A stretch of DNA of 64,000 bases, taken from an uncultured Chitinophaga sp. (GTDB taxonomy: Bacteria; Bacteroidota; Bacteroidia; UKL13-3). Numbering within the stretch: the stretch's first letter is position 1; the number at the start of each line of letters is the position of its first letter. The position numbers and the translations under genes are program-made. Of this stretch, positions 40,710 through 54,770 are shown in pieces. The stretch spans positions 952 through 64,951 of the forward strand of contig CAYHCF010000004.1 of NCBI GenBank assembly GCA_964355075.1, given 5' to 3'. Under the pieces are notes generated by a model. It did no database searches. It was given only the letters and a program-made list of their open reading frames with translations, and was not told the origin of the DNA.

Positions 40710-42737
40710 TTATCGAATTACATTTAACTTCTTAACGGCAGTTTTGCCATCAACGTTTAATTCAACAAAATAGAAACCATTTTGCAATTGATCACAATTA
40801 ACGGTTCCGTTTAAACTGCTGATGTTTTGAGTCATTACTTCTTTTCCGTTAATATCTAAAATCCTGATGGTGCCATTGCTGGACGAACCGGTAAAGGTAA
40901 CGCTAAAGCTTGAAGCAGCAGGATTTGGATTAAGGTTCAAACCTAATTCATTGATTTCATTAACTCCCAAAGGCCAGGTAAGACCTGAGGAAACCGATTG
41001 CCATACTGTTTTATCGGCATCATCTTGTAAGAAAACAATCGCAAATAAACTGTTCATATCCTCAACCGAATTTTCGGTGGCTAGGTTAATAACGTTAGCT
41101 GCTTGTCCATCTGAAGGCAAACGATAGTTACCGGGAAATGTATAGGTTTGTGAATAAGGAACCGCTGTACCCGCTGCGAAACTAACGGCAGTACCAGCTG
41201 CATCGGGTAACATCTTTTTGTTTACATTGTAAAATTCAAGCTCCCCATTGGTTTTTTTATTTGCTTTGGTAACGCGTTCAACAATGGAAATACGTAATTT
41301 CATACTGGTATTGGTAAATGACTGAACCGGTGTAACATTTCCGGTAACCGTAACTTGTTTGCCAGTTCTGGAAAAATTAGCAGTTAATGACGCCAAAGAT
41401 GGAATTGCAGCAAATCCGTCAAAAATTGCCTCGGTATAGCTGTTCGCATTATTATTCCAGGCACCGTCAACAGTTAACCAGGGGGCATAAGTAGAACCAT
41501 AATAGCCAAAACGAACCGTATTTTCAGCTGTCATGTATGGGTCGCCTGTACCCGGGAAATGCATTTGATATTTAATTACATTCCAGGATCCCATTTTTAC
41601 ATCCAAAACAGACTTTATCATATCATTCCCCGGTTTACAAGGAGGACAGGTTGAAGAGGTAAATACTTCATGCAATACCACGCGGGGAATAGTTGAGTTT
41701 ACGATTACAAAAGAACCGGTAGCATTATTATTGGATGAATCTCCGTCCATACCTGCATTTGGATTTGAAACCCAAAGTTTAACAGTTGAATTAGCAGCTG
41801 TAGTACCGATATATGGGATATTATGAGTAAAGCTATAAGTACCGCCACTTGAGGCAATGCTTAAGCCCGATAATAACATGGTTACCGTTGCACCATTATC
41901 TACCGAGTAATTTAATTTAAATGAACTTAAACTTTGTGAACCATAATTAGTAACCGATCCTTTAAAATTTAATGGTGAGTTTTTTGCCTGATATTTTGGA
42001 ATATTCAAACTGGTCAATTCAATATCATTGAGTGGTTGAGTTCCTGGTTTGAAGGTATAAACTGCCATGGTGGTATAATCATCGTCAGCAGATGTAGCGT
42101 CAAAATCTGTACTCGGTGCACCGGCTACGGCTAACCCTGATGTCCCGTCAGAATTGTTATACCCGATGGTTCCTGCAATGGCCACACTTCTTTGGTTCGT
42201 TACAATATCAAACCCTTTGCCTTCATAAAACCGGATACCAAAAGATCCCAGGCTCGCTCCCGGCGTTGTAACCGATAACCATTGCACCACATGAATCCGA
42301 TTGGGTGCAGTACCATAAGTCCAGGAGAAAACCTGATCTACCACTCCTCCTCCGGCTGCCAGTTTAAAATTATACCAAAACCCAAATATTGCATTTTTGG
42401 GAGCTGAGGTACTTGGCAAAGTTGTGGCTGTAGTAGGGTTGGCTGTTTCGGTCAGATCAAAAGTTAAGAAACCATTGTCGCTAACTTTATAACTGGTTAC
42501 GGGCGTTCCTAAAAAATTCCACGCAAAGGGTAAAGTCTGGGTTGCCGAATAAGTTTGATCAGAAGGAATTGCCAGAACAGAGGTAGTACCTGTTCCACGA
42601 ACGGCTTTCTTGTAATCATAATTGGTGCCGTTTACAGTCCCAACCAGACCTTTCGATTTTAGGTAAAAATAGCTTTGAGCAGATAAACTGGTTCCTAGAA
42701 TAAGAACAAAAGCTAATGTAAGTAATTGTTTTTTCAT
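40710..42737 (-). CDS. Secreted T9SS cargo protein with an internal thioredoxin/Omp28-like CxxC region
   Basis: 675 aa. Signal peptide. 'HEVFTSSTCPPCKPGN'. C-terminal Por-secretion tail (..NPNPAASSFSV..ILDINGKEV..LQNGFYFVEL..KKLNVIR). Confidence 0.8.
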   Translation of the reverse strand: MKKQLLTLAFVLILGTSLSAQSYFYLKSKGLVGTVNGTNYDYKKAVRGTGTTSVLAIPSDQTYSATQTLPFAWNFLGTPVTSYKVSDNGFLTFDLTETANPTTATTLPSTSAPKNAIFGFWYNFKLAAGGGVVDQVFSWTYGTAPNRIHVVQWLSVTTPGASLGSFGIRFYEGKGFDIVTNQRSVAIAGTIGYNNSDGTSGLAVAGAPSTDFDATSADDDYTTMAVYTFKPGTQPLNDIELTSLNIPKYQAKNSPLNFKGSVTNYGSQSLSSFKLNYSVDNGATVTMLLSGLSIASSGGTYSFTHNIPYIGTTAANSTVKLWVSNPNAGMDGDSSNNNATGSFVIVNSTIPRVVLHEVFTSSTCPPCKPGNDMIKSVLDVKMGSWNVIKYQMHFPGTGDPYMTAENTVRFGYYGSTYAPWLTVDGAWNNNANSYTEAIFDGFAAIPSLASLTANFSRTGKQVTVTGNVTPVQSFTNTSMKLRISIVERVTKANKKTNGELEFYNVNKKMLPDAAGTAVSFAAGTAVPYSQTYTFPGNYRLPSDGQAANVINLATENSVEDMNSLFAIVFLQDDADKTVWQSVSSGLTWPLGVNEINELGLNLNPNPAASSFSVTFTGSSSNGTIRILDINGKEVMTQNISSLNGTVNCDQLQNGFYFVELNVDGKTAVKKLNVIR

Positions 42738-45392: not shown

Positions 45393-45812
45393 TCATTTTA
45401 TTAAAAATGATTGAATGGCTAAATCATAACTATTTAACCCAAAACCTGTTATGACTCCTTTTGCATGTTTCGAAATATAGGATTGCTGCCTGAATTCCTC
45501 TCTGGCAAAAATATTTGTGATATGAACCTCCACAACGGGAGTTTTAATGGAGGCAACTGCATCACCTATTGCCACAGAAGTATGGGTATATCCGCCTGCA
45601 TTTAAAATGATGCCGTCGTAGGAAAAACCAATTTCATGTAAACAATTGATCAATTCCCCTTCAATATTGCTTTGAAAATAATCCAATTCTATTTGAGGAA
45701 ATTGAATTTTTAGTTGTGTAAAATAGTTGTCAAAAGAGATATTCCCGTACTTTTCCGGTTCGCGGGTGCCCAATAAATTGAGATTTGGGCCATTTATTAT
45801 CCTAAGTTTCAT
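45393..45812 (-). CDS. aroQ: Type II 3-dehydroquinate dehydratase
   Basis: 'IINGPNLNLLGTREPEKYG', 'NAGGYTHTSVAI', 'EVHITNIFAREEFR'. Confidence 0.95.
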   Translation of the reverse strand: MKLRIINGPNLNLLGTREPEKYGNISFDNYFTQLKIQFPQIELDYFQSNIEGELINCLHEIGFSYDGIILNAGGYTHTSVAIGDAVASIKTPVVEVHITNIFAREEFRQQSYISKHAKGVITGFGLNSYDLAIQSFLIK

Positions 45813-45845
45813 ACAAAAAGATTTAAAAATTAATAAAATATTCTA

Positions 45846-45853
45846 TATTTTTG
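45846..45853 (+). promoter_or_regulatory. Candidate -7 box TATTTTTG
   Basis: Perfect TAnnTTTG, 20 nt upstream of ATG 45874. Confidence 0.4.
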
Positions 45854-45873
45854 CCGCAAGTAAATATACTCCT

Positions 45874-46551
45874 ATGAAAAAACTATTACTTTATTTTTTT
45901 ATTGTTTGCAGTTTTCAGGCTGTTGTCGCGCAAACTTTCACTATTGTTCCTAAGCTGGCCAAAGGACAAGGTCCTAATAATTCCTTTTTAATCGATGCTT
46001 ACGCAACCTTTACAAATACAGGTTCTGAAACTAATTTCGAATGGAAAATCATTGACCTTGTTGCTCCAATCGGATGGGAATTTGGCATGTGTGACCCCTT
46101 TAATTGTGTATCCTCATTATCCATTGGTTCTGTGGGTCAGTTTACATTAGGAGTTGGTAAAAATGGCGTATTTAAAGGTGATTATACCCCTAATGGCAAA
46201 TCCGGATTAGGAACAGCTAAAGTAATCATTTATCCAAAATCTAACTCGGCATTACAGGATACGCTTGTTTTTCAAATGAACGCCTGGATTACAGGAATGA
46301 AAGAAAATAGTCAAAGCAAAGAATTCACCTATTATCCAAATCCGGTAAAAGACCATTTATTTGTGAAATATATTACCAAAGATGCTATGCAGATTGATAT
46401 TTACAATGTTCTGGGAACAAAAGTAAAAAGCTTTGTTCATAGTGGATTTGAAACAGATGTAAACGTTACGGAGTTGCAAAACGGAATCTATTTCATCCGT
46501 TTTAAAGATGCAAATCAAACTATCTCTAAACCATTTAACAAAACAGAATAG
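45874..46551 (+). CDS. Small secreted T9SS cargo protein
   Basis: Signal peptide MKKLLLYFFIVCSFQAVVAQ. C-terminal sorting domain (YPNPVKDHLFVKY..IDIYNVLGTKV..LQNGIYFIRF). The ORF-track start 45727 overlaps aroQ and was rejected. Confidence 0.8.
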   Translation: MKKLLLYFFIVCSFQAVVAQTFTIVPKLAKGQGPNNSFLIDAYATFTNTGSETNFEWKIIDLVAPIGWEFGMCDPFNCVSSLSIGSVGQFTLGVGKNGVFKGDYTPNGKSGLGTAKVIIYPKSNSALQDTLVFQMNAWITGMKENSQSKEFTYYPNPVKDHLFVKYITKDAMQIDIYNVLGTKVKSFVHSGFETDVNVTELQNGIYFIRFKDANQTISKPFNKTE

Positions 46552-46570
46552 AAATAAACATCAACCTATT

Positions 46571-46613
46571 AAAAAGGCCTGGTCTCATCTTAAGAACGAG
46601 ATCAGGCCTTTTT
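46571..46613. terminator. Bidirectional intrinsic terminator
   Basis: A5-GGCCTGGTCTC-loop-GAGATCAGGCC-T5, between convergent genes. Confidence 0.8.
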
Positions 46614-46630
46614 AGTGATATCGCTATCTT

Positions 46631-48127
46631 TTAAAATCTGTATCCTGCCCCAATGATAAAATTCAATTGGTTGGTGGTATTTACTGCTGAGGCATTGCAT
46701 CCTTCATAGGGAGTAATATAATCTTTCCCAATTCTGTCGCTTACAGCAAAGTCGAAAAAGAAAGCCTTGTTATATATTAATCCAATGCCCGCGCTAATAA
46801 CTTGTTTGGTGCCATCTGTTTTGCTTACCACATTCTCTTTATAAGGACTGCCTAATATGCTGTATCCTGCACGTATACGGATATCATCCGCTTTTATTTC
46901 AACTCCAAAACGGTAGTTATTTGCAATATCATAAATCACTTTATTATTGGAATTTGCAATTGCGAACGTGCTTTGGTCACTGAATCTTCCTTGTGTGAAA
47001 TCCACTCTTTCATAATCCACGGCTAAGATTGCAATTTGCCTTAAGGTGATCGCACCGCTGGCAATTAATCTTCCGGGAGTTACAATTTGATATTTGTAAT
47101 AATCTTCTCTTCCATCAGCTGAATTGGAGCTTCCGGTCGTATATTTCATATCCATTGTGTTTTGGTAATAATCCGTTAAATCTATACGAATAGGAGTATG
47201 ATAGGAAACTCCCATTTTTAAAAAATCGACAGGTCTTAAAATGACTCCAAATTTTCCACCCACACCTGAACCCTCCGTTCTTAAACTCTGATTAATGGTT
47301 ACTGATTTGTATCTGGCAGGAGTAGTGCTGTTGATACTGCTTTTTACAACCGATTCCGTATAGGTATTGTCCGAAGTGAAATCAATATCCTGAATAACCA
47401 CAGAACCCCCGAGGTATAAGAAATTCCCGATATTGAATCCTGCACCGGCATACCATTCGTTTGCACTGCCTTTATTTTGAATAACATTGCCCTGATTTAC
47501 CGTATAAACAGAATCCCCCAATACTTCAAAAATTGATTTATAAGCACTGGGTGATCCGCTATTATCAATTAAAAAAGTCCTCCAGGCCTGCGCGTATGGT
47601 TCGTTATCATAGTCCGCACTGTTCAGGATTGTTGAATCAGTGCCTGCTGCTTTATTTGCAAAATATTGCGCAATAGATTGATTGTTATTATTTCCGGAAT
47701 AAGAGGTAGTGGTTTGAAAATTATTGATACGGTTCATTCCAAATGCAAAACTTGAGCTGACAACCCCGGTTGTTTGATCCTTTCCGGCAGATTGATTCAA
47801 TTTTGTAAAAACCATACCCAAATTTGGAAGGTTTAATATGGTTCTTCCGTCTTTGGTGATATTGCCCTGATAGTTGGCGCTACTCATGGTTGCGGTGATA
47901 GCCAGTGAACCCATAAATTCATTCTTACGGTATAATGCTAATCCTGCAGGGTTAATGGATGCCGAAGTTGGATCTGCTCCAACTGCACCCCAGGCACCTC
48001 CCAGCCCTAATGTTCTGGCTGAACCTATTAATCCCTGATTACTGTATCTGAAAAGATCTTCCTGATTTTGGGCTTGCGCATTTATGATGAAACACGACAC
48101 AACAATCCCAATAAATAGCTTTTTCAT
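46631..48127 (-). CDS. Outer-membrane beta-barrel protein, FadL/OMPP1/TodX-like
   Basis: 498 aa. Signal peptide. N-terminal 'SARTLGLGGAWGAVGADPTSASINPAGLA' as in FadL-family hatch regions. Alternating beta-strand texture. C-terminal '..GAGYRF'. Confidence 0.65.
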   Translation of the reverse strand: MKKLFIGIVVSCFIINAQAQNQEDLFRYSNQGLIGSARTLGLGGAWGAVGADPTSASINPAGLALYRKNEFMGSLAITATMSSANYQGNITKDGRTILNLPNLGMVFTKLNQSAGKDQTTGVVSSSFAFGMNRINNFQTTTSYSGNNNNQSIAQYFANKAAGTDSTILNSADYDNEPYAQAWRTFLIDNSGSPSAYKSIFEVLGDSVYTVNQGNVIQNKGSANEWYAGAGFNIGNFLYLGGSVVIQDIDFTSDNTYTESVVKSSINSTTPARYKSVTINQSLRTEGSGVGGKFGVILRPVDFLKMGVSYHTPIRIDLTDYYQNTMDMKYTTGSSNSADGREDYYKYQIVTPGRLIASGAITLRQIAILAVDYERVDFTQGRFSDQSTFAIANSNNKVIYDIANNYRFGVEIKADDIRIRAGYSILGSPYKENVVSKTDGTKQVISAGIGLIYNKAFFFDFAVSDRIGKDYITPYEGCNASAVNTTNQLNFIIGAGYRF

Positions 48128-48156
48128 ATTATTTTTCTTTAATAAACTTTAATAAA

Positions 48157-49884
48157 TTATCGCGGACGAGACCTTGGGGCTGAACCACCACCACCGCTTC
48201 CGGAAGAACCGCCACTTGAACCGCCCCCACCTGATCTAGGGCTTGGGCTGCTTTGAGATGGGCTGCTGGGCGCACTGTAAGAAGGTTGACTCCTTGATGG
48301 CGCACTGTAAGAGGGTGCGGGGGCATTTTGAGGAGGAGAATAGGACGATCTTGGCACGGGTGCATTGTTATAATTGTTGTTATTAGGTAAACTATTATTT
48401 GAACCCCTATCACCCCGATTTGGTCTTGAATAATCGCCTCTTCCTGATCGATTATTTTCACTTCTTCCAGGTGAATTAACGCCAGGGTTTTCACTGGTAC
48501 TATTGTTATACGACCTTTCCCGTGAAGGTATATAAATCTGCGTTCCGTTTGAACCTTGAATCAGATCACCTCCCGGACGATTTGTGCTTACATTTTCGGG
48601 CTTGGTTCGATCGGAAGGGTTGCTATTAGGCGAAACATAAACCGGTCTTCCGTTTATATCATTTTTTAGTTCTCCTCCCGGGCGATTTGTTGCTACATTT
48701 TCGGGTGGGGTACGATCTGATGGATTAGGTTTGGGTGAAACATAAACCGGTTTCCCATTTAAATCATTTTTTAATTCTCCTCCTGGCTTATCGCTTGAAA
48801 CACTGCCTCCGCTGTTGATATCAGGCCGGTTTGGGCGGTAAGCATTTTCGCTTTCTGTTGGTCTTGCCGGCTTAGAAAAGGCAGGCTGAGCAGGATTACC
48901 CGATTGGTTAACCACATTGGTTCCGCTTTCAACTGTTGGACGGTTGCTATGACCGTCGGGAGTATAATTTCGGGGCTGAGAACCGGCAGGGATGCTTGAA
49001 CCCATGGAGTTTCGGGGACGAAGCATCGGACGATTGGTTACAATATCGTTTCCATTTCCCCAATTATTGTGATGATTGCCACAATCATTATGGTGATAGC
49101 CATTATGGTGATAGCCATTATGGTGATAGCCATAAGGGGAATATCCATAAGGGGAATATCCATAAGGGGAATATCCATAAGGGGAATATCCATAAGGATG
49201 ATACCCATATCCATAACCCCATGGATCATATGCGTATGGATTATACATTCCATATCCATAATAAGGATTATTCCACATTCCATAACCATAACTCATCCCA
49301 TATCCCATTCCATAATTCCACCCGTCATAACTGCTATAGCCAAAACCAATGTTCCAGCCCGGGGCCCAATTATAATAACCCGGACGAACAATAGGATGGT
49401 AAAAACTGGTCCATCCCCAGTTTGAACTCAGGGTATTATAATAGGGATCATCATAGTAATAGGTACGCTCTGACCCAAATCTACGGGCATCTCTGTAATC
49501 ATTTTTTTCCTCTTCAATAACAGCGCCCTGATTTTTATTTGAACCTGAAACTTCAGCTTCTGAATTTCCTGAACTTGTTGTCAATCCTCTTTTTTTGTTC
49601 CATTCATCGTAAGCATTTTGTGCCCCGGCCTGATCGTAACCGGAAGGCTCTTCGCCTGACTTAACCTGGTTGCCGGGCTCATAATTCTGATATGATGAAG
49701 AAGGCCCCTTCCCGGATTTTCCAATCTTTTCAACCTCTTCAATGCTTTGCAGTTTTTTAGCTGCATCACTCCTCGACCAATAGGCATCATCCTCAGTAAT
49801 ACTTGAATTAAAACTTTTATGTGTTCCACAAGCAGTTAATGATAACATTAACAAGCTGAAAAAATATAATTTCATGTTTTTCAT
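48157..49884 (-). CDS. Low-complexity Tyr/Gly/His/Pro/Asn/Ser-rich lipoprotein
   Basis: Start at MKNMKLYFFSLLMLSLTAC (lipobox LTAC). Contains GY/NPY-rich block, (GYSPY)x4, (GYHHN)x3, three ~33-aa NRPGGELKND.NG.PVYVSP repeats and a G/S tail. 29 nt upstream of the barrel gene on the same strand. Confidence 0.7.
   Translation of the reverse strand: MKNMKLYFFSLLMLSLTACGTHKSFNSSITEDDAYWSRSDAAKKLQSIEEVEKIGKSGKGPSSSYQNYEPGNQVKSGEEPSGYDQAGAQNAYDEWNKKRGLTTSSGNSEAEVSGSNKNQGAVIEEEKNDYRDARRFGSERTYYYDDPYYNTLSSNWGWTSFYHPIVRPGYYNWAPGWNIGFGYSSYDGWNYGMGYGMSYGYGMWNNPYYGYGMYNPYAYDPWGYGYGYHPYGYSPYGYSPYGYSPYGYSPYGYHHNGYHHNGYHHNDCGNHHNNWGNGNDIVTNRPMLRPRNSMGSSIPAGSQPRNYTPDGHSNRPTVESGTNVVNQSGNPAQPAFSKPARPTESENAYRPNRPDINSGGSVSSDKPGGELKNDLNGKPVYVSPKPNPSDRTPPENVATNRPGGELKNDINGRPVYVSPNSNPSDRTKPENVSTNRPGGDLIQGSNGTQIYIPSRERSYNNSTSENPGVNSPGRSENNRSGRGDYSRPNRGDRGSNNSLPNNNNYNNAPVPRSSYSPPQNAPAPSYSAPSRSQPSYSAPSSPSQSSPSPRSGGGGSSGGSSGSGGGGSAPRSRPR
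49087..49206 (-). repeat. Perfect in-frame 15-bp tandem repeats inside the lipoprotein gene
   Basis: ATTATGGTGATAGCC x3 (49087-49131), ATAAGGGGAATATCC x4 (49132-49191), and a degenerate eighth unit (49192-49206). Confidence 0.95.
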
Positions 49885-49927
49885 AACTCTAATTTTTAAT
49901 TCGTTAAACAAAGTAACAACTAAAAAG

Positions 49928-49935
49928 TATTTTTG
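49928..49935 (+). promoter_or_regulatory. Candidate -7 box TATTTTTG for proS
   Basis: Perfect TAnnTTTG, 41 nt upstream of ATG 49977. Confidence 0.35.
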
Positions 49936-49976
49936 TCGCTGTTTATTATGTTTCAAATATTATTCCAAACTCATTC

Positions 49977-51452
49977 ATGGAAATTAAAAAGGTAAAACGG
50001 AGCGAAGATTACAGTGCGTGGTACAATAATTTGGTTAAGAATGCTGATCTGGCAGAGCATTCGGAAGTTAAAGGCTGCATGGTTATTAAACCTTATGGCT
50101 ATGCCATATGGGAAAAAATGCAGGCTGAATTAGACAAAAGATTCAAGGAAACTGGACACCAGAACGCATATTTCCCATTATTTATTCCCAAATCGTTTTT
50201 CACAAAAGAGGCCAGTCATGTAGATGGTTTCGCTAAAGAATGCGCGGTGGTTACCCATTATCGTTTAAAAGTTGATGAGGTAACCAAAGAAATTGTGGTT
50301 GATCCGGAGGCAAAATTAGAAGAAGAATTAATTGTTCGTCCTACCAGTGAAACCATCATCTGGAATACTTACCGCTCATGGATTCAAAGTTACCGTGATT
50401 TACCCATTTTGTTGAACCAATGGGCAAATGTGGTAAGATGGGAAATGAGAACCCGACTCTTTTTGCGTACCACTGAATTTCTTTGGCAGGAAGGTCACAC
50501 CGCACATGCCACTGCCGAAGAAGCCATTGTAGAAACCACAAAAATGCTTGATGTTTATGCCAATTTTTCTGAAAACATTTTGGCTATCCCCGTTATAAAA
50601 GGTGTTAAATCAGCAAATGAACGATTTGCAGGTGCAATCGAAACCTATTGTATTGAAGGCTTAATGCAGGATGGAAAAGCGCTTCAAATGGGGACTTCCC
50701 ATTTTTTGGGTCAGAACTTTGCAAAGGCATTTGAGGTAAAATATGTGACCCGGGAAAATACCAAAGAATACGTTTGGGCAACCTCCTGGGGCGTATCAAC
50801 CCGGTTAATGGGTGCGTTAATTATGTGTCACAGCGATGATGAAGGTTTGGTTTTACCGCCCAGATTGGCCCCAATTCAGGTAGTTATTATTCCTATATTC
50901 AGAAAAGATGAAGAAAAAGCTTTGGTTTTACAGAAGGCAGATGAATATTACCAATTATTAATGAAACAGGGTATCCGCGTAAAGCTGGATGATAGAGATT
51001 ATCAATCACCGGGATTTAAATTTGCTGAGCATGAATTAAAAGGGGTTCCGGTTCGTATTGCCATCGGCCCCAGAGATATTCAAAATCAAACGGTTGAAGT
51101 TGCCAGAAGGGATACCAAAGAAAAACAAATCATGAGTGCTGCGGATCTGGAACACAAGATTCCACATTTATTGGAGCAAATTCAAATAAACATATACCAA
51201 CGTGCACTCGATTACCGAAGTGATCACCTGTTTGCTGTAGATACCTGGGAGGAGTTTATGGATGCGCTAGAGAATAAAACAGGATTTGTTAGCGCTCACT
51301 GGGATGGTACTTCTGCTACCGAAGAAAAAATCAAAGAATTATCAAAGGCAACCATTCGTTGCATTCCCTTGAATAATCCTCAGGAAACCGGTAAATGTAT
51401 CTTAACGGGTAATCCTTCCACACAACGGGTTCTCTTTGCAATGGCATACTGA
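49977..51452 (+). CDS. proS: Proline--tRNA ligase (archaeal/eukaryote-like type)
   Basis: 491 aa. '[30 protein letters not shown]' N-terminus, class II motifs ('[16 protein letters not shown]'), and a C-terminal ProRS-C1-like domain ending in Y. Confidence 0.93.
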
Positions 51453-51464
51453 TTTTTTTCGATG

Positions 51465-52229
51465 TTAAACATAACCTTTCATCGTATAAACAATCAAACC
51501 AATCCATTCTTTTATGAGATAAGTCCAGTTTTGTATACCCCCATAAGCGGGTAAAAATGTATTTATGATATGGTCTTTACTTCGTATGGAACGCATATCT
51601 GTTGCGTAGGGAGTTACGTTCATTCCGGTCTTTTTAAAACATTTCAAAGCCCTTCTCATGTGAAATCCTGAAGTGACCAACAAGAATTTTTTATTTCTCC
51701 AATCCGGATCCTTTCTTTCAAGCATCTTCGATGTAAAAGCGGCATTCTCATAGGTATTAATTGATTCCGTTTCTATCCATATGCAGGAATCCGGTATGCC
51801 ACATTTTATTAAAAAGGCTCTCCCCAATTCAGCTTCCGCTTTATAGGTTCCGAAAATGGTATCGGCTCCGGCAGTATATATAATCTTATTAGAGACGCCC
51901 CGTTTAAACAAATCAATGGCCTGCATCATCCGGTCATTCCCATCAGAAAAATTTACCCGTAACTGCCCGTCAATTGTGTAATTGGTAACGAATCCTCCCG
52001 GAATAATCAATCCTTCAAATTTTTCGTTTTTGGAAATGACTATGGGTTCAACCTCATACCAACCCATCACCATTTGACTGATATAGGGATTTGAAAAAAA
52101 GATCAGCAAGCCAAAACCCCACCAGAAGTAATTTTTGATTTTAGTAAGTATAAACAATAAAAACAAAATGATGATCAAACTTACAGGAGCTACGAGAGCG
52201 TATAAAACTTTGGATAAAATATAAAACAT
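51465..52229 (-). CDS. YdcF/DUF218-family (ElyC/SanA-like) membrane-anchored protein
   Basis: Start at MFYILSKVLYAL.. (52229). 'IIPGG', 'LLVTSGFHMRRA'. Confidence 0.8.
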   Translation of the reverse strand: MFYILSKVLYALVAPVSLIIILFLLFILTKIKNYFWWGFGLLIFFSNPYISQMVMGWYEVEPIVISKNEKFEGLIIPGGFVTNYTIDGQLRVNFSDGNDRMMQAIDLFKRGVSNKIIYTAGADTIFGTYKAEAELGRAFLIKCGIPDSCIWIETESINTYENAAFTSKMLERKDPDWRNKKFLLVTSGFHMRRALKCFKKTGMNVTPYATDMRSIRSKDHIINTFLPAYGGIQNWTYLIKEWIGLIVYTMKGYV

Positions 52230-52231
52230 GG

Positions 52232-53218
52232 TTATGGATTGAAATATTGATAATAAAGGCTGCAAATTACAAGAAAAGCAAAAATGAGTTCCTTCAGAAC
52301 TTTCTTTTTATCACTGATAAAAAAATTGGCTAAAATGATGGATACGGCTACCGATAGAAAACACAGACCAAAAACAAAGCTGTGATTTTCTGCAAATACA
52401 CTAATCACACCGAATACCGACATGATAAAAACAACTAACTGAATACGCCTTGTTTTAACTTTATTTCGAAAAAAATTGTTTTGAATATCAAAAGAAGACA
52501 GAAAGAATACAGGAATTATTACGATCCATATCAGACTTTGCTTTAAAGTAATATCAAGTGCGTTAAAGTAATTTTTGTTATAAGAATAGTTAAATGAAGA
52601 AATCAGGTCTTTTAAATGATCGGTAAGATAAAAGATGACTCCTAAAAAATAAATGGGAAGGATAATGCCAATAATTGCTACCAGCCAATATCGAAAATTG
52701 AAAGAGGTCATGTAAAGAACACTGATCAGAATAAAAGGTAGATAGATGATCAAATCGTAGCTTAAAAGCAAACCTATTCCGAGGTATATGCCTGCATCGA
52801 ACACCAATAATAAAGGAATATTCGATTCGTAGAGATAACACAATCTGAATAACAGCAAAATTATAAAGGTATTGGCCAATATCTGCGGCGATAAAAATAA
52901 TTGTTGCGGATACAAGCTGTTCAGTATTACAAAAAAAACAGCCGGAAGAAGGCTTTCCTTATATAATACAGCATGTGAAGCAGTAATATAATTGACCAAT
53001 AATGCCTGAGAAAAAATAATCAGGGTTGATATCATATTTGACCTGAGAGAAAAATCTCCGAAGGAATCAAACCAGGTAAAAACCATACTCGCAATTGGCG
53101 TATTAATTGAAGGTTCAAAATGAAAAGCAACAAAATAAGGAGACATACGCAGGAGGATGGTAAAAACCAATAAGAACAGGATCGGGAAAAGCGAATGGGA
53201 CCGGAATATACTTAACAA
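52232..53218 (-). CDS. Hypothetical polytopic membrane protein
   Basis: 328 aa, TTG start, about 9 TM helices. 2 nt from the downstream gene. Confidence 0.5.
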   Translation of the reverse strand: MLSIFRSHSLFPILFLLVFTILLRMSPYFVAFHFEPSINTPIASMVFTWFDSFGDFSLRSNMISTLIIFSQALLVNYITASHAVLYKESLLPAVFFVILNSLYPQQLFLSPQILANTFIILLLFRLCYLYESNIPLLLVFDAGIYLGIGLLLSYDLIIYLPFILISVLYMTSFNFRYWLVAIIGIILPIYFLGVIFYLTDHLKDLISSFNYSYNKNYFNALDITLKQSLIWIVIIPVFFLSSFDIQNNFFRNKVKTRRIQLVVFIMSVFGVISVFAENHSFVFGLCFLSVAVSIILANFFISDKKKVLKELIFAFLVICSLYYQYFNP

Positions 53219-53228
53219 AATTTTTGAA

Positions 53229-54701
53229 TTAAAAGGTTACACGCATCAAAGTAAACTGTTTGTCACGGATTGTACTTAATATAACACTATTAGCACTGGT
53301 CTGCTTGTATTCGGTTGGAATAATGGTGGCTTCAAAATTACTTGATTTAATAAGGATTTTCCCATCCGACTTACCCAGGTAATTGGTATAATGCAACATA
53401 ATATCACTTTCTTTATCTAAATCACTATTAAAAACAGTATAAACAAAATCAGTGGTTGGAATGGTAATTATGGAAGACAGGTAACCACCATCTCCTACTG
53501 AATTCTGCCTTTTTTTAATCAGATCTGAAAATTGAATCTGTCCTTCTTTATTCAGGGAAATAATACCAACCTCATCATAATTATAAATAATTCTGGTAGC
53601 CGTTTGAGGGAAATTGTTTACGTAATAGGTATAAGTCTGCCGGGTTTGATAATATTTTTCAATGACAAGCATCAAACCTCCATCGCTTCGTGCGATCACT
53701 TTGCGAATATAAAAATCGTTTAAGTCGGGACGCTTCTTATCTAATTTTGCAGCGTTTAATTTTTGCAGTACATTGGGATCCATTAAGCCTGCATAATTTA
53801 GCTCAGCGAGTTGGGTATTCAGGTTAATTCTCTCCACAAAATATCCGGATACTTCATTCCTGTTTTTTGTTGAATAAAATCCAACAACCGAAACCGTTTG
53901 ATTAAAATTGTTCAAAACCATGCCTAATTCCTCTGTAAAAAGAGAATCTTTATCAAGCTGATATTCCATTATTCTGTCATTATTCTGGTAATATCCGAAT
54001 AAGAAGAATTTTCGTGGATCGCCGGAATCATCCTTCCCGGGTTCTTTTGGAAAATCAATCAAAACAAAGGCATCTCCCAAATTACTTAAATCATAACTGG
54101 TCATGAAAACACTCTTTTGAGGATAATTTAATTTAAACTGTTTCCCGTAAATCTGTTGAATTTGATTGTTAAAGCAATATAAATTCAAATGACTCGTATT
54201 GGCATCCTCTCCCCAGGTGAGATACAGGATTCCAATCTTACTTCTATCCGCATTGGTTTTGATCTGAATTTTGCGCTTCTCGATAAATTTGCCTTTTTCA
54301 ATGGAACAAATAATAAACGGACTGCCCATGATTTTAAAATTCTCATCCATTTTTTGCACAAAAAGATCCACTTTCCCCGTCAGGGTATTTCGGGCACTAA
54401 TAAATATAGTTAAGATATTATTTACCAGCAAAACCCGTTCTACCGTTCCGTTTACCGAAAGAGGTAAAGCAATACTTTGTTCCAGGGTAAGATTGGTTCT
54501 GTATTTTTCAAGGATAATATCGTTTGTGAACTCGTTGTCTTTGCAGCGAAGAAGGTAAAGCCAGGAGGTGGTTTCGCCAACGATCTGGGTATAGAGATTT
54601 TTCTGTTTGATCTTTTGAGGGTTTCCCCATTCCACATTTTGTGCCCTGGCCTGAAAGAGCCAAAAACATAAAACAATGAAAAAAAACTTCTTAAATGCCA
54701 T
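53229..54701 (-). CDS. Hypothetical secreted protein
   Basis: Start at MAFKKFFFIVLCFWLFQARAQ (54701). Beta-rich, no motif recognised. Confidence 0.5.
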   Translation of the reverse strand: MAFKKFFFIVLCFWLFQARAQNVEWGNPQKIKQKNLYTQIVGETTSWLYLLRCKDNEFTNDIILEKYRTNLTLEQSIALPLSVNGTVERVLLVNNILTIFISARNTLTGKVDLFVQKMDENFKIMGSPFIICSIEKGKFIEKRKIQIKTNADRSKIGILYLTWGEDANTSHLNLYCFNNQIQQIYGKQFKLNYPQKSVFMTSYDLSNLGDAFVLIDFPKEPGKDDSGDPRKFFLFGYYQNNDRIMEYQLDKDSLFTEELGMVLNNFNQTVSVVGFYSTKNRNEVSGYFVERINLNTQLAELNYAGLMDPNVLQKLNAAKLDKKRPDLNDFYIRKVIARSDGGLMLVIEKYYQTRQTYTYYVNNFPQTATRIIYNYDEVGIISLNKEGQIQFSDLIKKRQNSVGDGGYLSSIITIPTTDFVYTVFNSDLDKESDIMLHYTNYLGKSDGKILIKSSNFEATIIPTEYKQTSANSVILSTIRDKQFTLMRVTF

Positions 54702-54770
54702 TAATTTGCAAATATTTAGAAAAAACGAAGATAATTTTTCTGCGTATTTGTTTGAACACAAATTTATTTA

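What the first reader, a model, noticed from the sequence alone, without database searches (positions are those of the whole stretch)
46631..49884. Extreme low-complexity Tyr/Gly/His/Pro lipoprotein co-transcribed with a FadL-like outer-membrane barrel: candidate surface-polymer or export pair
Seen: the minus-strand gene 48157-49884 has a lipobox signal (..LSLTAC) followed by about 570 aa with essentially no hydrophobic core. It contains a GYGMSYGYGMWNNPYYGYGMYNPYAYDPWGYGYGYHPY block, (GYSPY)x4, (GYHHN)x3, three ~33-aa NRPGGELKND.NG.PVYVSP repeats, and an S/P/N-rich tail ending GGGGSSGGSSGSGGGGSAPRSRPR. A 498-aa signal-peptide protein follows 29 nt downstream on the same strand. It has a FadL-type hatch motif (GLGGAWGAVGADPTSASINPAGLA) and ends ..GAGYRF. 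The pair is insulated by a divergent proS promoter and a strong bidirectional terminator. The lipoprotein has no T9SS C-terminal domain, although T9SS cargo genes sit next door. Inference: a dedicated barrel that exports or anchors an aromatic/Gly-rich, possibly amyloid-, adhesive- or metal-binding (His-rich) surface polymer. This would be conceptually like curli CsgA/CsgG, Fap or SLAM-lipoprotein pairs, but with unrelated parts.
Basis: partly seen in the sequence, partly recalled or inferred. Interest (0 to 1): 0.7.

Follow-up and report, generated by a model that had tools for sequence, protein, structure and literature searches.

The report
Conserved FadL-like barrel plus disordered lipoprotein
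This is a real two-gene operon found across the Bacteroidota, next to the prolyl-tRNA synthetase gene: it encodes an outer-membrane barrel of the FadL superfamily and a floppy lipoprotein rich in tyrosine and glycine, and nobody has worked out what the pair does.

Summary
On the minus strand, a 575-aa lipoprotein gene (48157-49884) lies 29 nt upstream of a 498-aa signal-peptide protein (46631-48127). The pair sits between a divergent proS gene and a strong terminator hairpin.

The second protein models confidently (pLDDT 89.5) as a FadL-fold barrel with an invariant NPA hatch motif. It falls below the cut-offs of the FadL, PorV/PorQ and BamG models, so it is a separate clade. That clade is large: 3,703 cluster representatives at E<=1e-30.

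The lipoprotein has no Pfam or NCBIfam family and is predicted disordered. In 69 of 71 evaluable related loci, spanning Chitinophagales-, Sphingobacteriales-, Cytophagales-, Flavobacteriales- and Bacteroidales-type genomes plus one Melioribacteraceae genome, the barrel gene follows such a lipoprotein. These lipoproteins share a lipobox Cys, a DD(V)Y motif 9-13 residues later, an aromatic/Gly block and a basic tail ending in Arg. proS is divergent in 58 loci.

By gene order, Flavobacterium johnsoniae Fjoh_4939/4940/4941 is the same triad. It is expressed and responds to envelope stress, but is uncharacterised.

No family member has the Bacteroidota surface-export signal, and the His-rich patch is not a conserved family feature. 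The 'surface polymer/metal-binding' reading is therefore weakened. A barrel-docked, periplasm-facing disordered lipoprotein is more likely.

The parts
49977..51452 (+). proS (prolyl-tRNA synthetase), divergent neighbour. It is conserved next to the pair across the phylum.
   Evidence: Pfam tRNA-synt_2b, HGTP_anticodon and ProRS-C_1. proS lies divergently upstream in 58 of 80 related loci.
49885..49976 (.). 92-nt divergent intergenic region with two conserved boxes that resemble the Bacteroidota -7 promoter element TAnnTTTG, one on each strand.
   Evidence: Sequences compared by eye across 33 loci. The gap is usually 88-106 nt. The promoter role is inferred, not tested.
48157..49884 (-). Gene for a 575-aa intrinsically disordered, low-complexity lipoprotein. 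It belongs to an unannotated family.
   Evidence: ORF; no Pfam or NCBIfam hit; AF2 pLDDT 41.7; homologous lipoprotein upstream of the barrel in 69 of 71 loci.
49828..49884 (-). Signal peptide and lipobox (residues 1-19, ..LSLTAC). Cys19 is the predicted lipidation site.
   Evidence: Sequence. The Cys column is invariant in alignments A3 and A4.
49780..49791 (-). DDAY (residues 32-35), the family's DD(V)Y motif. It is the candidate docking segment.
   Evidence: D32 and Y35 are invariant and D33 is at least 90% conserved. The motif lies 9-13 residues after the Cys in 60 of 68 members.
49438..49485 (-). RRF...YYYDDPYY motif (residues 134-149).
   Evidence: Conserved as RRF..YYxDPYY or YNDPYYYN across the family.
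49045..49437 (-). Aromatic/Gly low-complexity block (about residues 150-280). It includes GYSPY x4, GYHHN x3 and the single Cys of the mature protein.
   Evidence: Composition by 40-residue window; DNA tandem repeats; Cys residues are confined to relative position 0.4-0.6 across the family.
48529..48792 (-). Three (R/K)PGG(E/D)L..NG.P(V/I)Y(V/I).P repeats (residues 365-452): two clear copies and one degenerate.
   Evidence: TRF period 105 nt x2.0, 82% match. Weak beta-hairpins in the AF2 model. The motif occurs only in the close clade L002-L030.
48160..48234 (-). Gly/Ser tail ending ...APRSRPR (residues 551-575), the family's basic C-terminus.
   Evidence: The last residue is Arg in 59 of 68 members. 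At least 2 basic residues occur in the last five in 67 of 68.
48128..48156 (-). 29-nt spacer between the lipoprotein gene and the barrel gene.
   Evidence: The family median gap is 21 nt. No terminator-like site on the coding (minus) strand in the spacer or within either gene; the three terminator-like sites found are all on the opposite (+) strand.
46631..48127 (-). Gene for a 498-aa outer-membrane beta-barrel of the FadL superfamily. It belongs to a distinct clade.
   Evidence: AF2 pLDDT 89.5, pTM 0.83. Foldseek E about 1e-16 to BamG, FadL and TodX. Profile search of PDB sequences hits TbuX at 3e-8. 13 of 31 homologues hit PF03349.
47921..48070 (-). N-terminal hatch region (residues 20-69) with the invariant NPA motif (N59-P60-A61, coordinates 47945-47953).
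   Evidence: Invariant columns Q20, R38, A45, G50, D52, N59, P60, A61 in 31 sequences; N-terminal alignment.
46570..46614 (.). Bidirectional intrinsic-terminator hairpin shared with the convergent T9SS-CTD gene.
   Evidence: RNA fold -27.9 kcal/mol, z = -5.4, 0 of 200 shuffles as stable.

Best explanation
The two genes are an ancient co-transcribed outer-membrane module.

The 498-aa protein is a FadL-fold barrel from its own large clade. The 575-aa protein is its cognate lipoprotein, anchored in the outer membrane by Cys19. It lacks the surface-export signal, so it most likely faces the periplasm.

[quoted passage not shown] The rest of the lipoprotein has three conserved zones: an acidic first third, a neutral Tyr/Trp/Gly/Asn block, and a basic Ser/Pro/Arg tail ending in Arg. 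I infer that this part extends as a disordered chain from the outer membrane into the periplasm.

The pair would then act in envelope homeostasis. The lipoprotein could be a tether, or a hand-over device for hydrophobic molecules that pass through the FadL-type channel. Export of a surface amyloid or a metal-binding polymer is less likely.

Shown: the genes, the fold, the disorder prediction, the motifs, the synteny and the lack of an export signal. Inferred: the physical complex, the orientation of the lipoprotein and the function.
For: - Operon structure: 29-nt gap, no terminator-like site on the coding strand between or within the two genes (the three sites found are on the opposite strand), strong hairpin after the barrel gene.
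- Synteny: the lipoprotein is present upstream of the barrel in 69 of 71 evaluable loci, with a median gap of 21 nt. It is also present at barrels only about 25% identical and in cultured Desertivirga arenae.
- Barrel: confident FadL-fold model and structural hits; invariant NPA hatch. It lies far below the cut-offs of the PorV, PorQ and BamG models, and the window protein does not hit Pfam Toluene_X.
- Family size: 3,703 representatives at E<=1e-30.
- Lipoprotein: conserved motifs and charge pattern; predicted disorder.
- Orientation: 0 of 68 members have at least 2 acidic residues in positions +1 to +6 after the Cys. The position of the export signal is critical (PMC5080379).
- F. johnsoniae: Fjoh_4939 is proS, Fjoh_4940 is a lipoprotein without export signal or domain, and Fjoh_4941 is a FadL-type barrel. 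Both proteins are detected in outer-membrane fractions and rise 2.6-fold and 5.6-fold when TamL is depleted (PMC12045153). Their levels also change in the outer-membrane proteome data reported for the lolA1 and lolB1 mutants (PMC11885536).
Against: - No direct evidence of a complex. A multimer prediction could not be run.
- The barrel's long loops predicted to be extracellular carry conserved motifs (DN...A.AWR..LIDN). That points to a function on the outside: substrate capture, or binding of a surface partner.
- Bacteroidota BamA has an extracellular, disordered Tyr/Gly/Asn-rich loop of similar composition (PMC12578637). Such sequences therefore do occur at the cell surface.
- A dedicated barrel could export its partner without the canonical signal.
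- Orthology of Fjoh_4940/4941 rests on gene order and annotation only. I had no sequences for them.
- The AF2 model of the lipoprotein used a single sequence, which tends to under-predict order.
Confidence: 0.45

Rival explanations
1. The barrel exports or anchors the lipoprotein at the cell surface. There the aromatic/Gly-rich chain forms an adhesive, amyloid-like or gel-like layer, conceptually like curli or SLAM systems.
For: - Tight phylum-wide pairing.
- FadL-like barrels hold surface proteins in Bacteroidota: BamG-BamH and PorV-cargo.
- Conserved loops on the barrel that are predicted to be extracellular.
- BamA's extracellular EL3 loop has a similar Tyr/Gly/Asn composition.
- The Tyr/Gly-plus-Arg composition resembles self-associating low-complexity domains (from memory, not tested).
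Against: - No export signal in any of 68 members, and the signal's position is critical.
- The F. johnsoniae counterpart is classed as periplasm-facing.
- The F. johnsoniae counterpart was not found in vesicles, whereas the barrel was.
- FadL-fold barrels are plugged by their hatch.
- The His patch is not a conserved family feature.
- No amyloid predictor was run.
Confidence: 0.17
2. The barrel is a genuine FadL-type channel for fatty acids or other hydrophobic molecules. The lipoprotein is only an accessory, or is not functionally tied to the barrel.
For: - Invariant NPA hatch and FadL fold.
- Profile hits to TbuX, a Pseudomonas aeruginosa FadL homologue (3dwo) and CymD.
- Databases name members 'OmpP1/FadL family transporter'.
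- The authors of the TamL study read Fjoh_4941 as the FadL homologue, induced when outer-membrane homeostasis fails.
Against: - The window protein misses the Pfam family entirely.
- There are no fatty-acid or hydrocarbon catabolic genes nearby; the neighbours are housekeeping genes.
- Adjacency in 69 of 71 loci, at barrel identities down to about 25%, is hard to explain without a functional tie.
Confidence: 0.2
3. The pair is a BamG/BamH-like accessory unit of the Bacteroidota BAM machinery.
For: - The best structural hits are BamG chains: 9hiv_F at 6.2e-17, plus 9hjm_F and 9n2d_B.
- BamG2/BamH2 shows that paralogous barrel-lipoprotein operons exist.
- The F. johnsoniae pair is induced on envelope stress.
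Against: - The NCBIfam BamG model is hit by only 3 of 31 members, best E 1.7e-9, far under its cut-off.
- BamG chains are not found by the sequence profile in the PDB.
- The barrel is about 100 aa longer than the BamG chains in the PDB hits (390-406 residues).
- BamH is a folded surface lipoprotein with an export signal, whereas this partner is disordered and lacks one.
- The named BAM subunits of F. johnsoniae do not include Fjoh_4940 or Fjoh_4941, and neither locus tag occurs in that paper's supplements.
Confidence: 0.08

Closest known systems
FadL / TodX / TbuX outer-membrane channels for hydrophobic molecules (Pfam PF03349 Toluene_X)
   Same: The beta-barrel fold: Foldseek E 7e-17 to 1e-13, TM 0.5-0.66. 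An N-terminal hatch with NPA, here invariant. A C-terminal aromatic signal ending in F. Some homologues reach the Pfam model.
   Different: The window protein does not hit the Pfam model even at E<=1. It is about 70-80 aa longer. It is always paired with a lipoprotein gene and has no catabolic neighbours. Transport has not been tested.
BamG-BamH, and the BamG2-BamH2 operon, of the Bacteroidota BAM complex (PMC12611786, PMC12578637)
   Same: A FadL-fold barrel that works with a lipoprotein whose lipidated N-terminal tail binds the barrel. BamG is the best structural match. The paralogous pair is encoded as an operon.
   Different: The sequence family differs. BamH is folded, surface-exposed and carries the export signal, whereas this lipoprotein is disordered and has none. 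There is no evidence of association with BamA.
PorV / PorQ (T9SS FadL-like shuttle and anchor barrels)
   Same: The N-terminal 60 residues resemble PorV/PorQ models: PorV_fam hit by 12 of 31 members and PorVQ2 by 14 of 31; PDB 6h3i_F, residues 1-65. All are protein-binding FadL-like barrels in the same phylum.
   Different: The matches cover only the N-terminus and are far below the cut-offs. The structural match to PorV is weak (E 2.5e-5, TM 0.33). The partner has no T9SS C-terminal domain.
Flavobacterium johnsoniae Fjoh_4940 / Fjoh_4941, next to proS Fjoh_4939 (PMC12045153, PMC11885536)
   Same: The same gene triad: proS, then a lipoprotein with no domain and no export signal, then a FadL/TodX-type barrel. 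This is probably the orthologous pair in a genetically tractable organism.
   Different: It is known only from proteomics tables and one sentence suggesting a functional link. Orthology is inferred from gene order; I could not compare sequences.
Curli CsgA/CsgG, Fap and SLAM-lipoprotein systems
   Same: The idea of a dedicated outer-membrane protein encoded next to its low-complexity or lipoprotein client.
   Different: None of these appear by name among the 50 best structural matches listed. Nothing here indicates secretion or amyloid formation. The lipoprotein lacks the export signal.

Membership tests
FadL/OmpP1/TodX (PF03349) | FadL-type beta-barrel fold | tested here: met
   AF2 pLDDT 89.5. 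Foldseek to FadL, TodX, TbuX and CymD gives E 7e-17 to 1e-12 and TM 0.46-0.67. The strand count (14 or 16) could not be settled from the DSSP string alone.
FadL/OmpP1/TodX (PF03349) | N-terminal hatch with a conserved NPA motif | tested here: met
   N59, P60 and A61 are invariant in 31 diverse homologues.
FadL/OmpP1/TodX (PF03349) | Score above the Pfam model's gathering threshold | tested here: not met
   The window protein has no Toluene_X hit at E<=1. 13 of 31 homologues hit at E<=0.01, best 1.9e-11.
FadL/OmpP1/TodX (PF03349) | Lateral opening (S3 kink) and transport of hydrophobic substrates | not testable with these tools
Transport needs an experiment.
BamG (NCBIfam NF053685) | Match to the BamG sequence model | tested here: not met
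   Only 3 of 31 members hit at E<=0.01 (best 1.7e-9). The window protein does not hit.
BamG (NCBIfam NF053685) | Partner is BamH: a folded surface lipoprotein with at least 2 acidic residues within six residues of the Cys | tested here: not met
   The partner is predicted disordered. 0 of 68 members have at least 2 acidic residues in +1 to +6. The criterion is taken from PMC12578637.
BamG (NCBIfam NF053685) | Conserved N-terminal extension of 10-12 residues relative to FadL | tested here: inconclusive
   The mature N-terminus to NPA is 39 residues here. E. coli FadL has 32, from my memory of its sequence. That gives an extension of about 7, which is intermediate.
BamG (NCBIfam NF053685) | Physical association with BamA | not testable with these tools
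   Needs a pull-down. The named BAM subunits of F. johnsoniae do not include Fjoh_4940 or Fjoh_4941, and neither locus tag occurs in that paper's supplements.
PorV/PorQ (NF033709, NF033710, NF033711, NF052325) | Full-length match above the curated cut-off | tested here: not met
   Window protein against PorVQ2: 21.4 bits versus a cut-off of 325, residues 11-69 only. PorV_fam is hit by 12 of 31 members, best 5e-11. Foldseek to PorV 8gl6_F gives E 2.5e-5 and TM 0.33.
Bacteroidota surface-exposed lipoproteins (carrying the lipoprotein export signal, LES) | K-(D/E)2-type acidic signal directly after the lipidated Cys, with at least 2 acidic residues in the first six | tested here: not met
   57 of 68 members have 0 and 11 of 68 have 1 acidic residue in +1 to +6. 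The conserved DD sits 9-13 residues after the Cys. The signal's position is critical (PMC5080379).
T9SS cargo | C-terminal sorting domain (PF18962 or type B) | tested here: not met
   The lipoprotein has no Pfam hit. By contrast, the neighbours at 40710-42737 and 45871-46551 hit Por_Secre_tail.
Curli / Fap / SLAM export systems | Outer-membrane component of CsgG, FapF or SLAM type | tested here: not met
   The best structural matches are FadL-family barrels, followed by weak matches to porin- and AlgE-type barrels. None of the 50 listed matches is described as CsgG, FapF or SLAM.

The most novel reading that the evidence does not exclude
The lipoprotein family is a membrane-anchored, self-associating disordered protein. 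Its make-up, a Tyr/Gly-rich block followed by an Arg-rich tail, recalls FUS-type phase-separating domains and resilin-type elastomers. It would be held at the outer membrane by a dedicated FadL-fold barrel and would span the periplasm. There it would act either as an elastic tether from the outer membrane to the cell wall or inner membrane, filling the role of Braun's lipoprotein, which (from my own knowledge, not checked here) Bacteroidota lack, or as a hydrophobic hand-over matrix beneath the channel. Its conserved back-to-back promoter with proS would couple its synthesis to growth.
Probability: 0.18. Interest if true: 0.85.

Novelty: new variant of a known kind. Interest (0 to 1): 0.62.

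Why it matters
Envelope biology in the Bacteroidota is being rewritten. The BAM complex, Lol, TamL and the T9SS all use FadL-like barrels and lipoproteins in unexpected ways.

This module is as widespread as those systems: thousands of sequence clusters, from Chitinophagales-type to Bacteroidales-type genomes, and one member of the Ignavibacteriota. In F. johnsoniae outer-membrane fractions, the spectral counts of the probable lipoprotein counterpart are similar to those of BamG (about 46 versus 45), and the pair responds to envelope stress. Yet the lipoprotein has no family name and the barrel is mislabelled as a fatty-acid transporter.

A conserved, almost fully disordered outer-membrane lipoprotein with a fixed acidic, aromatic, basic layout is unusual in bacteria. 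Because a probable orthologue exists in a tractable model (Fjoh_4940/4941), the question can be tested directly.

Tried and rejected
- The search for related loci with the diverse barrel alignment A1 failed because no block was conserved enough. The closer alignment A2 worked.
- A profile search of the word-indexed protein database with A1 returned the same 68 proteins as the single sequence and added nothing.
- A profile of the lipoprotein N-termini (A4) returned mostly gene fragments and short calls. It did give the cultured example from Desertivirga arenae.
- Pfam and NCBIfam scans of 38 lipoproteins found no family, only stray hits to Mucin, TolA and MPL36 in single members.
- Rfam found nothing credible in 46300-50200. 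A CRISPR-DR61 match at E 0.034, below the gathering score, lies inside the protein-coding repeats.
- The sigma-70 promoter scan was at background level, 12 found versus 11.5 expected, and is not suited to Bacteroidota.
- The O-glycosylation motif D(S/T)(A/I/L/V/M/T) is not a feature of the family: median count 0 per protein, and 0 in the window protein.
- A conserved barrel Cys that could pair with the lipoprotein's lone Cys was considered and rejected. The barrel's Cys near residue 475 is not conserved in the A2 consensus.
- Covalent Lpp-style attachment through a C-terminal Lys was considered and rejected. The last residue is Arg in 59 of 68 members and Lys in only 3.
That orthology stays an inference.

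Full report

Yes. The minus strand carries an ORF at 48157-49956. Its biologically sensible start is the ATG at 49884, giving MKNMKLYFFSLLMLSLTAC, a 575-aa protein with a signal peptide and a lipobox. The next ORF, 46631-48127, lies 29 nt downstream on the same strand and encodes a 498-aa protein with a signal peptide.

At the DNA level, Tandem Repeats Finder reports 15-nt units (x4.8 and x3.2) and a 105-nt unit (x2.0, 82% match). The '33-aa x3' repeat is therefore two clear copies plus a degenerate third.

The mature lipoprotein is S 14.6, G 13.1, N 11.3, P 10.6, Y 9.4 and R 6.1%, and ILVMF together make only 9.2%. A single-sequence AlphaFold2 run gives mean pLDDT 41.7. The only secondary structure is one short helix and weak hairpins in the three repeats.

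A hairpin at 46570-46614 folds at -27.9 kcal/mol (z = -5.4). It has an A-run on one side and a U-run on the other, and sits between the barrel gene and a convergent gene. proS is divergent, 92 nt from the lipoprotein start. Two nearby genes carry T9SS C-terminal domains.

One correction: His is 2.2% of the protein, concentrated in one patch of about 25 aa.

**2. The barrel**

The window protein hits no Pfam family. Its only NCBIfam hit is a 21-bit N-terminal match to PorV2, whose cut-off is 325 bits.

With an alignment of 31 homologues, AlphaFold2 gives a confident model: pLDDT 89.5, pTM 0.83.

In Foldseek against the PDB, the top matches are tied. They are the BamG subunits of the recently solved Bacteroidota BAM complexes (9hiv_F, 9hjm_F, 9n2d_B) and E. 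coli/Pseudomonas FadL, TodX, TbuX and CymD. All have E about 1e-16 to 1e-12 and TM 0.5-0.66. PorV is much weaker, at 2.5e-5.

A sequence profile finds TbuX (3e-8), a Pseudomonas aeruginosa FadL homologue, 3dwo (2.7e-7), CymD, and only the N-terminus of PorV.

Among the 31 homologues:
- 13 touch Pfam Toluene_X.
- 12 touch the PorV/PorQ family model.
- 14 touch PorV2.
- 3 touch BamG.

All of these scores are far below the curated cut-offs.

The most conserved part is the N-terminal hatch. Q20, R38, A45, G50 and D52 are invariant, and so is the FadL hallmark N59-P60-A61.

The protein is therefore a FadL-superfamily barrel in a clade of its own. That clade is large. An exhaustive HMM search of 1.84 billion cluster representatives finds 3,703 proteins at E<=1e-30. 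The best 150 are all full-length, mostly about 470-520 aa, and score at least 440 bits. Where databases name them, they are 'OmpP1/FadL family transporter', 'long-subunit fatty acid transport protein' or 'hypothetical'.

**3. The synteny test**

A scan of one genome per GTDB species returned 80 loci. All are metagenome-assembled genomes labelled Bacteroidota, apart from a few evidently mislabelled records and one Melioribacteraceae genome. The labels include Sphingobacteriales, Chitinophagales, Cytophagaceae, Flavobacteriales, Bacteroidales, Prolixibacteraceae, Lentimicrobiaceae and Salinivirgaceae.

Nine loci lack usable upstream DNA. In 69 of the remaining 71, the ORF directly upstream on the same strand is a lipobox lipoprotein rich in Y/W, G, N, S and P. 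Only L029 and L036 lack it. The median distance from the lipoprotein stop codon to the barrel ATG is 21 nt.

The same arrangement holds in three further cases:
- Barrels only about 25% identical, reached through other contigs (L082 and L083).
- The cultured Desertivirga arenae (L081).
- The Melioribacteraceae locus L077, where the partner is shorter (183 aa) but keeps the lipobox, an acidic-aromatic motif, aromatic patches, a Pro-rich stretch and a ...KPRRR end.

**4. The lipoprotein family**

Pfam and NCBIfam contain no model for it. Overall identity between members is low, but the architecture is fixed:

(a) A lipobox Cys, invariant in the alignments.
(b) A DD(V/I/A/L)Y motif starting 9-13 residues after the Cys in 60 of 68 members. 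D32 and Y35 are invariant in the alignments.
(c) An acidic, partly helical linker.
(d) An RRF..YYxDPYY motif, or the related YNDPYYYN.
(e) An aromatic/Gly/Asn low-complexity block, which also holds the only Cys residues of the mature protein. These sit at relative position 0.4-0.6, and 53 of 68 members have at least one.
(f) A basic Ser/Pro/Asn/Arg-rich tail.
(g) A Gly/Ser run ending in basic residues. The last residue is Arg in 59 of 68 members, and at least 2 basic residues occur in the last five in 67 of 68.

Net charge runs from negative in the first third, through about neutral in the middle, to positive in the last third, in every member examined.

His is 0.4% at the family median. Small His patches recur sporadically (window, L031, L070, L082) but are not a family trait. 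The RPGG(D/E)L hairpin repeats occur only in the window's own clade.

**5. Where does the lipoprotein sit?**

Bacteroidota send lipoproteins to the cell surface by means of an acidic export signal directly after the Cys. Its position is critical (PMC5080379). [quoted passage not shown]

None of the 68 family members meets this criterion: 57 have no acidic residue there and 11 have one. By the general pathway, the protein should stay on the periplasmic face of the outer membrane. This is a prediction, and a dedicated barrel could override it.

**6. A model-organism counterpart**

In F. johnsoniae proteomics tables, three adjacent genes match the window's triad (PMC12045153 supplement):
- Fjoh_4939 is proline-tRNA ligase.
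- Fjoh_4940 is an SPII 'periplasm-facing lipoprotein' with no domain and unknown function.
- Fjoh_4941 is an 'OMPP1/FadL/TodX' beta-barrel.

Both envelope proteins are detected in outer-membrane fractions. Spectral counts for Fjoh_4940 are about 46, similar to the 45 for BamG (Fjoh_1412). On TamL depletion they rise 2.6-fold and 5.6-fold. The authors remark that the proximity of the genes 'might indicate a functional link'.

In the outer-membrane proteome data reported for the lolA1 and lolB1 mutants, Fjoh_4940 falls to 0.5 and Fjoh_4941 rises to 2.7 (PMC11885536 supplement). No other paper in the library mentions either locus tag, and neither occurs in the BAM structure paper's supplements.

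I could not fetch the sequences, so the orthology rests on gene order and annotation.

**7. Mechanism**

Shown:
- An ancient operon.
- A FadL-fold barrel with an intact hatch motif.
- A disordered, tripartite lipoprotein without the export signal.
- Probable expression and an envelope-stress response in a model species.

Inferred: the two proteins form a complex. The best precedent is BamG-BamH. [quoted passage not shown] By analogy, the invariant Cys-to-DD(V)Y segment is the likely docking piece.

The rest of the chain has 300-700 disordered residues, an aromatic 'sticky' middle and a basic end. That is long enough to reach the cell wall or the inner membrane. I therefore favour a periplasm-facing tether, or a hand-over device linked to a hydrophobic-molecule channel, with a role in envelope homeostasis (confidence about 0.45 for the package).

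Rivals:
- A plain FadL transporter with an accessory or unrelated neighbour (0.20).
- A BAM accessory paralogue (0.08).

Two points favour a surface role. The barrel's long loops that are predicted to be extracellular carry conserved motifs. Bacteroidota BamA also has an extracellular, disordered Tyr/Gly/Asn-rich loop.

**8. Novelty**

FadL-fold barrels that partner with lipoproteins are a known kind in this phylum. This clade, its disordered partner family and the phylum-wide linkage to proS do not appear in Pfam, in NCBIfam or in the searchable literature, apart from one passing remark. I rate it a new variant of a known kind, with interest 0.62.

The resemblance of the composition to FUS-type or resilin-type sequences comes from my memory. 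It is a lead, not a test.

Noticed in passing
window 49885-49976, and the equivalent spacers in L001-L080: proS lies divergently next to the lipoprotein gene in 58 of 80 loci, with a spacer of nearly constant length (usually 88-106 nt). The spacer has a phylum-wide box, TGG(A/T)AT...(T)ATTTG, beside the proS start. In close relatives it also has CAAAAATACTTTTTAGTTGTTACTTTGT. Both resemble the Bacteroidota -7 promoter element, on opposite strands, which suggests overlapping divergent promoters.
   Followed up: partly
window 48936-49425 (+) and 49038-49289 (-): Long ORFs in other frames and on the other strand across the repeat region (152, 118 and 83 aa; for example ...HYGDSHYGDSHYGDSHKGNIHKGNIHKGNI...). 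They are by-products of the tandem repeats in the lipoprotein gene, not genes.
   Followed up: partly
lipoproteins of the window (residue 268) and of L001-L080: Cys residues in the mature protein occur almost only at the end of the aromatic block (relative position 0.4-0.6). 31 of 68 members have exactly one. Others have CxxC-like pairs such as CWSC, CWNC and CYSCYGC. This could mean disulfide-linked dimers or metal binding.
   Followed up: partly
window residues about 254-274 of the lipoprotein; L082:2658-3974; L031; L070: Short His-rich patches recur sporadically at the same place, the end of the aromatic block, in a few distant members (for example YHYHHHHPHRPPYHRPPHHNRPPHHNPPY in L082). 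The family median for His is only 0.4%.
   Followed up: partly
literature: Bacteroidota BamA extracellular loop 3 (PMC12578637): BamA of Bacteroidota has a conserved, disordered, extracellular Tyr/Gly/Asn-rich loop of unknown function. Its composition is similar to the lipoprotein's aromatic block.
   Followed up: no
L077:5442-5990 (Melioribacteraceae MAG): Outside the Bacteroidota, the barrel is preceded by a much shorter (183 aa) lipoprotein that is not low-complexity. It keeps the N-terminal acidic-aromatic motif, a Pro-rich stretch and a KPRRR end, and may resemble the ancestral form. proS is not adjacent there.
   Followed up: no
window 45727-46551 (+) and 45393-45812 (-): The longest ORF for the T9SS-CTD protein (TTG at 45727) overlaps the start of the aroQ gene by 86 nt. 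The ATG at 45871, followed by a signal peptide (MKKLLLYFFIV...), is the more likely start.
   Followed up: no
window 40710-42737 (-) and 45871-46551 (+): Two T9SS cargo proteins (Por_Secre_tail; the first has a weak CARDB match) flank a housekeeping block of an rlmD-like methyltransferase, a 128-aa protein of unknown function and aroQ. This block is conserved next to the pair only in about 22-24 close relatives.
   Followed up: partly
window 48367-48401 (-): Weak Rfam match to CRISPR-DR61 (29.6 bits against a gathering score of 38, E 0.034) inside the lipoprotein coding sequence. There is no array, so it is most likely a chance match.
   Followed up: no
L029 and L036: The only two evaluable loci where a barrel of this clade has no lipoprotein gene upstream and no proS. 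They may be paralogues or relocated copies, and could serve as natural 'barrel alone' cases.
   Followed up: no
window 51465-54761 (-): Downstream of proS lie a DUF218 (YdcF-like) protein, a DUF6427 membrane protein and a 510-aa protein with no Pfam hit. Their conservation was not examined.
   Followed up: no
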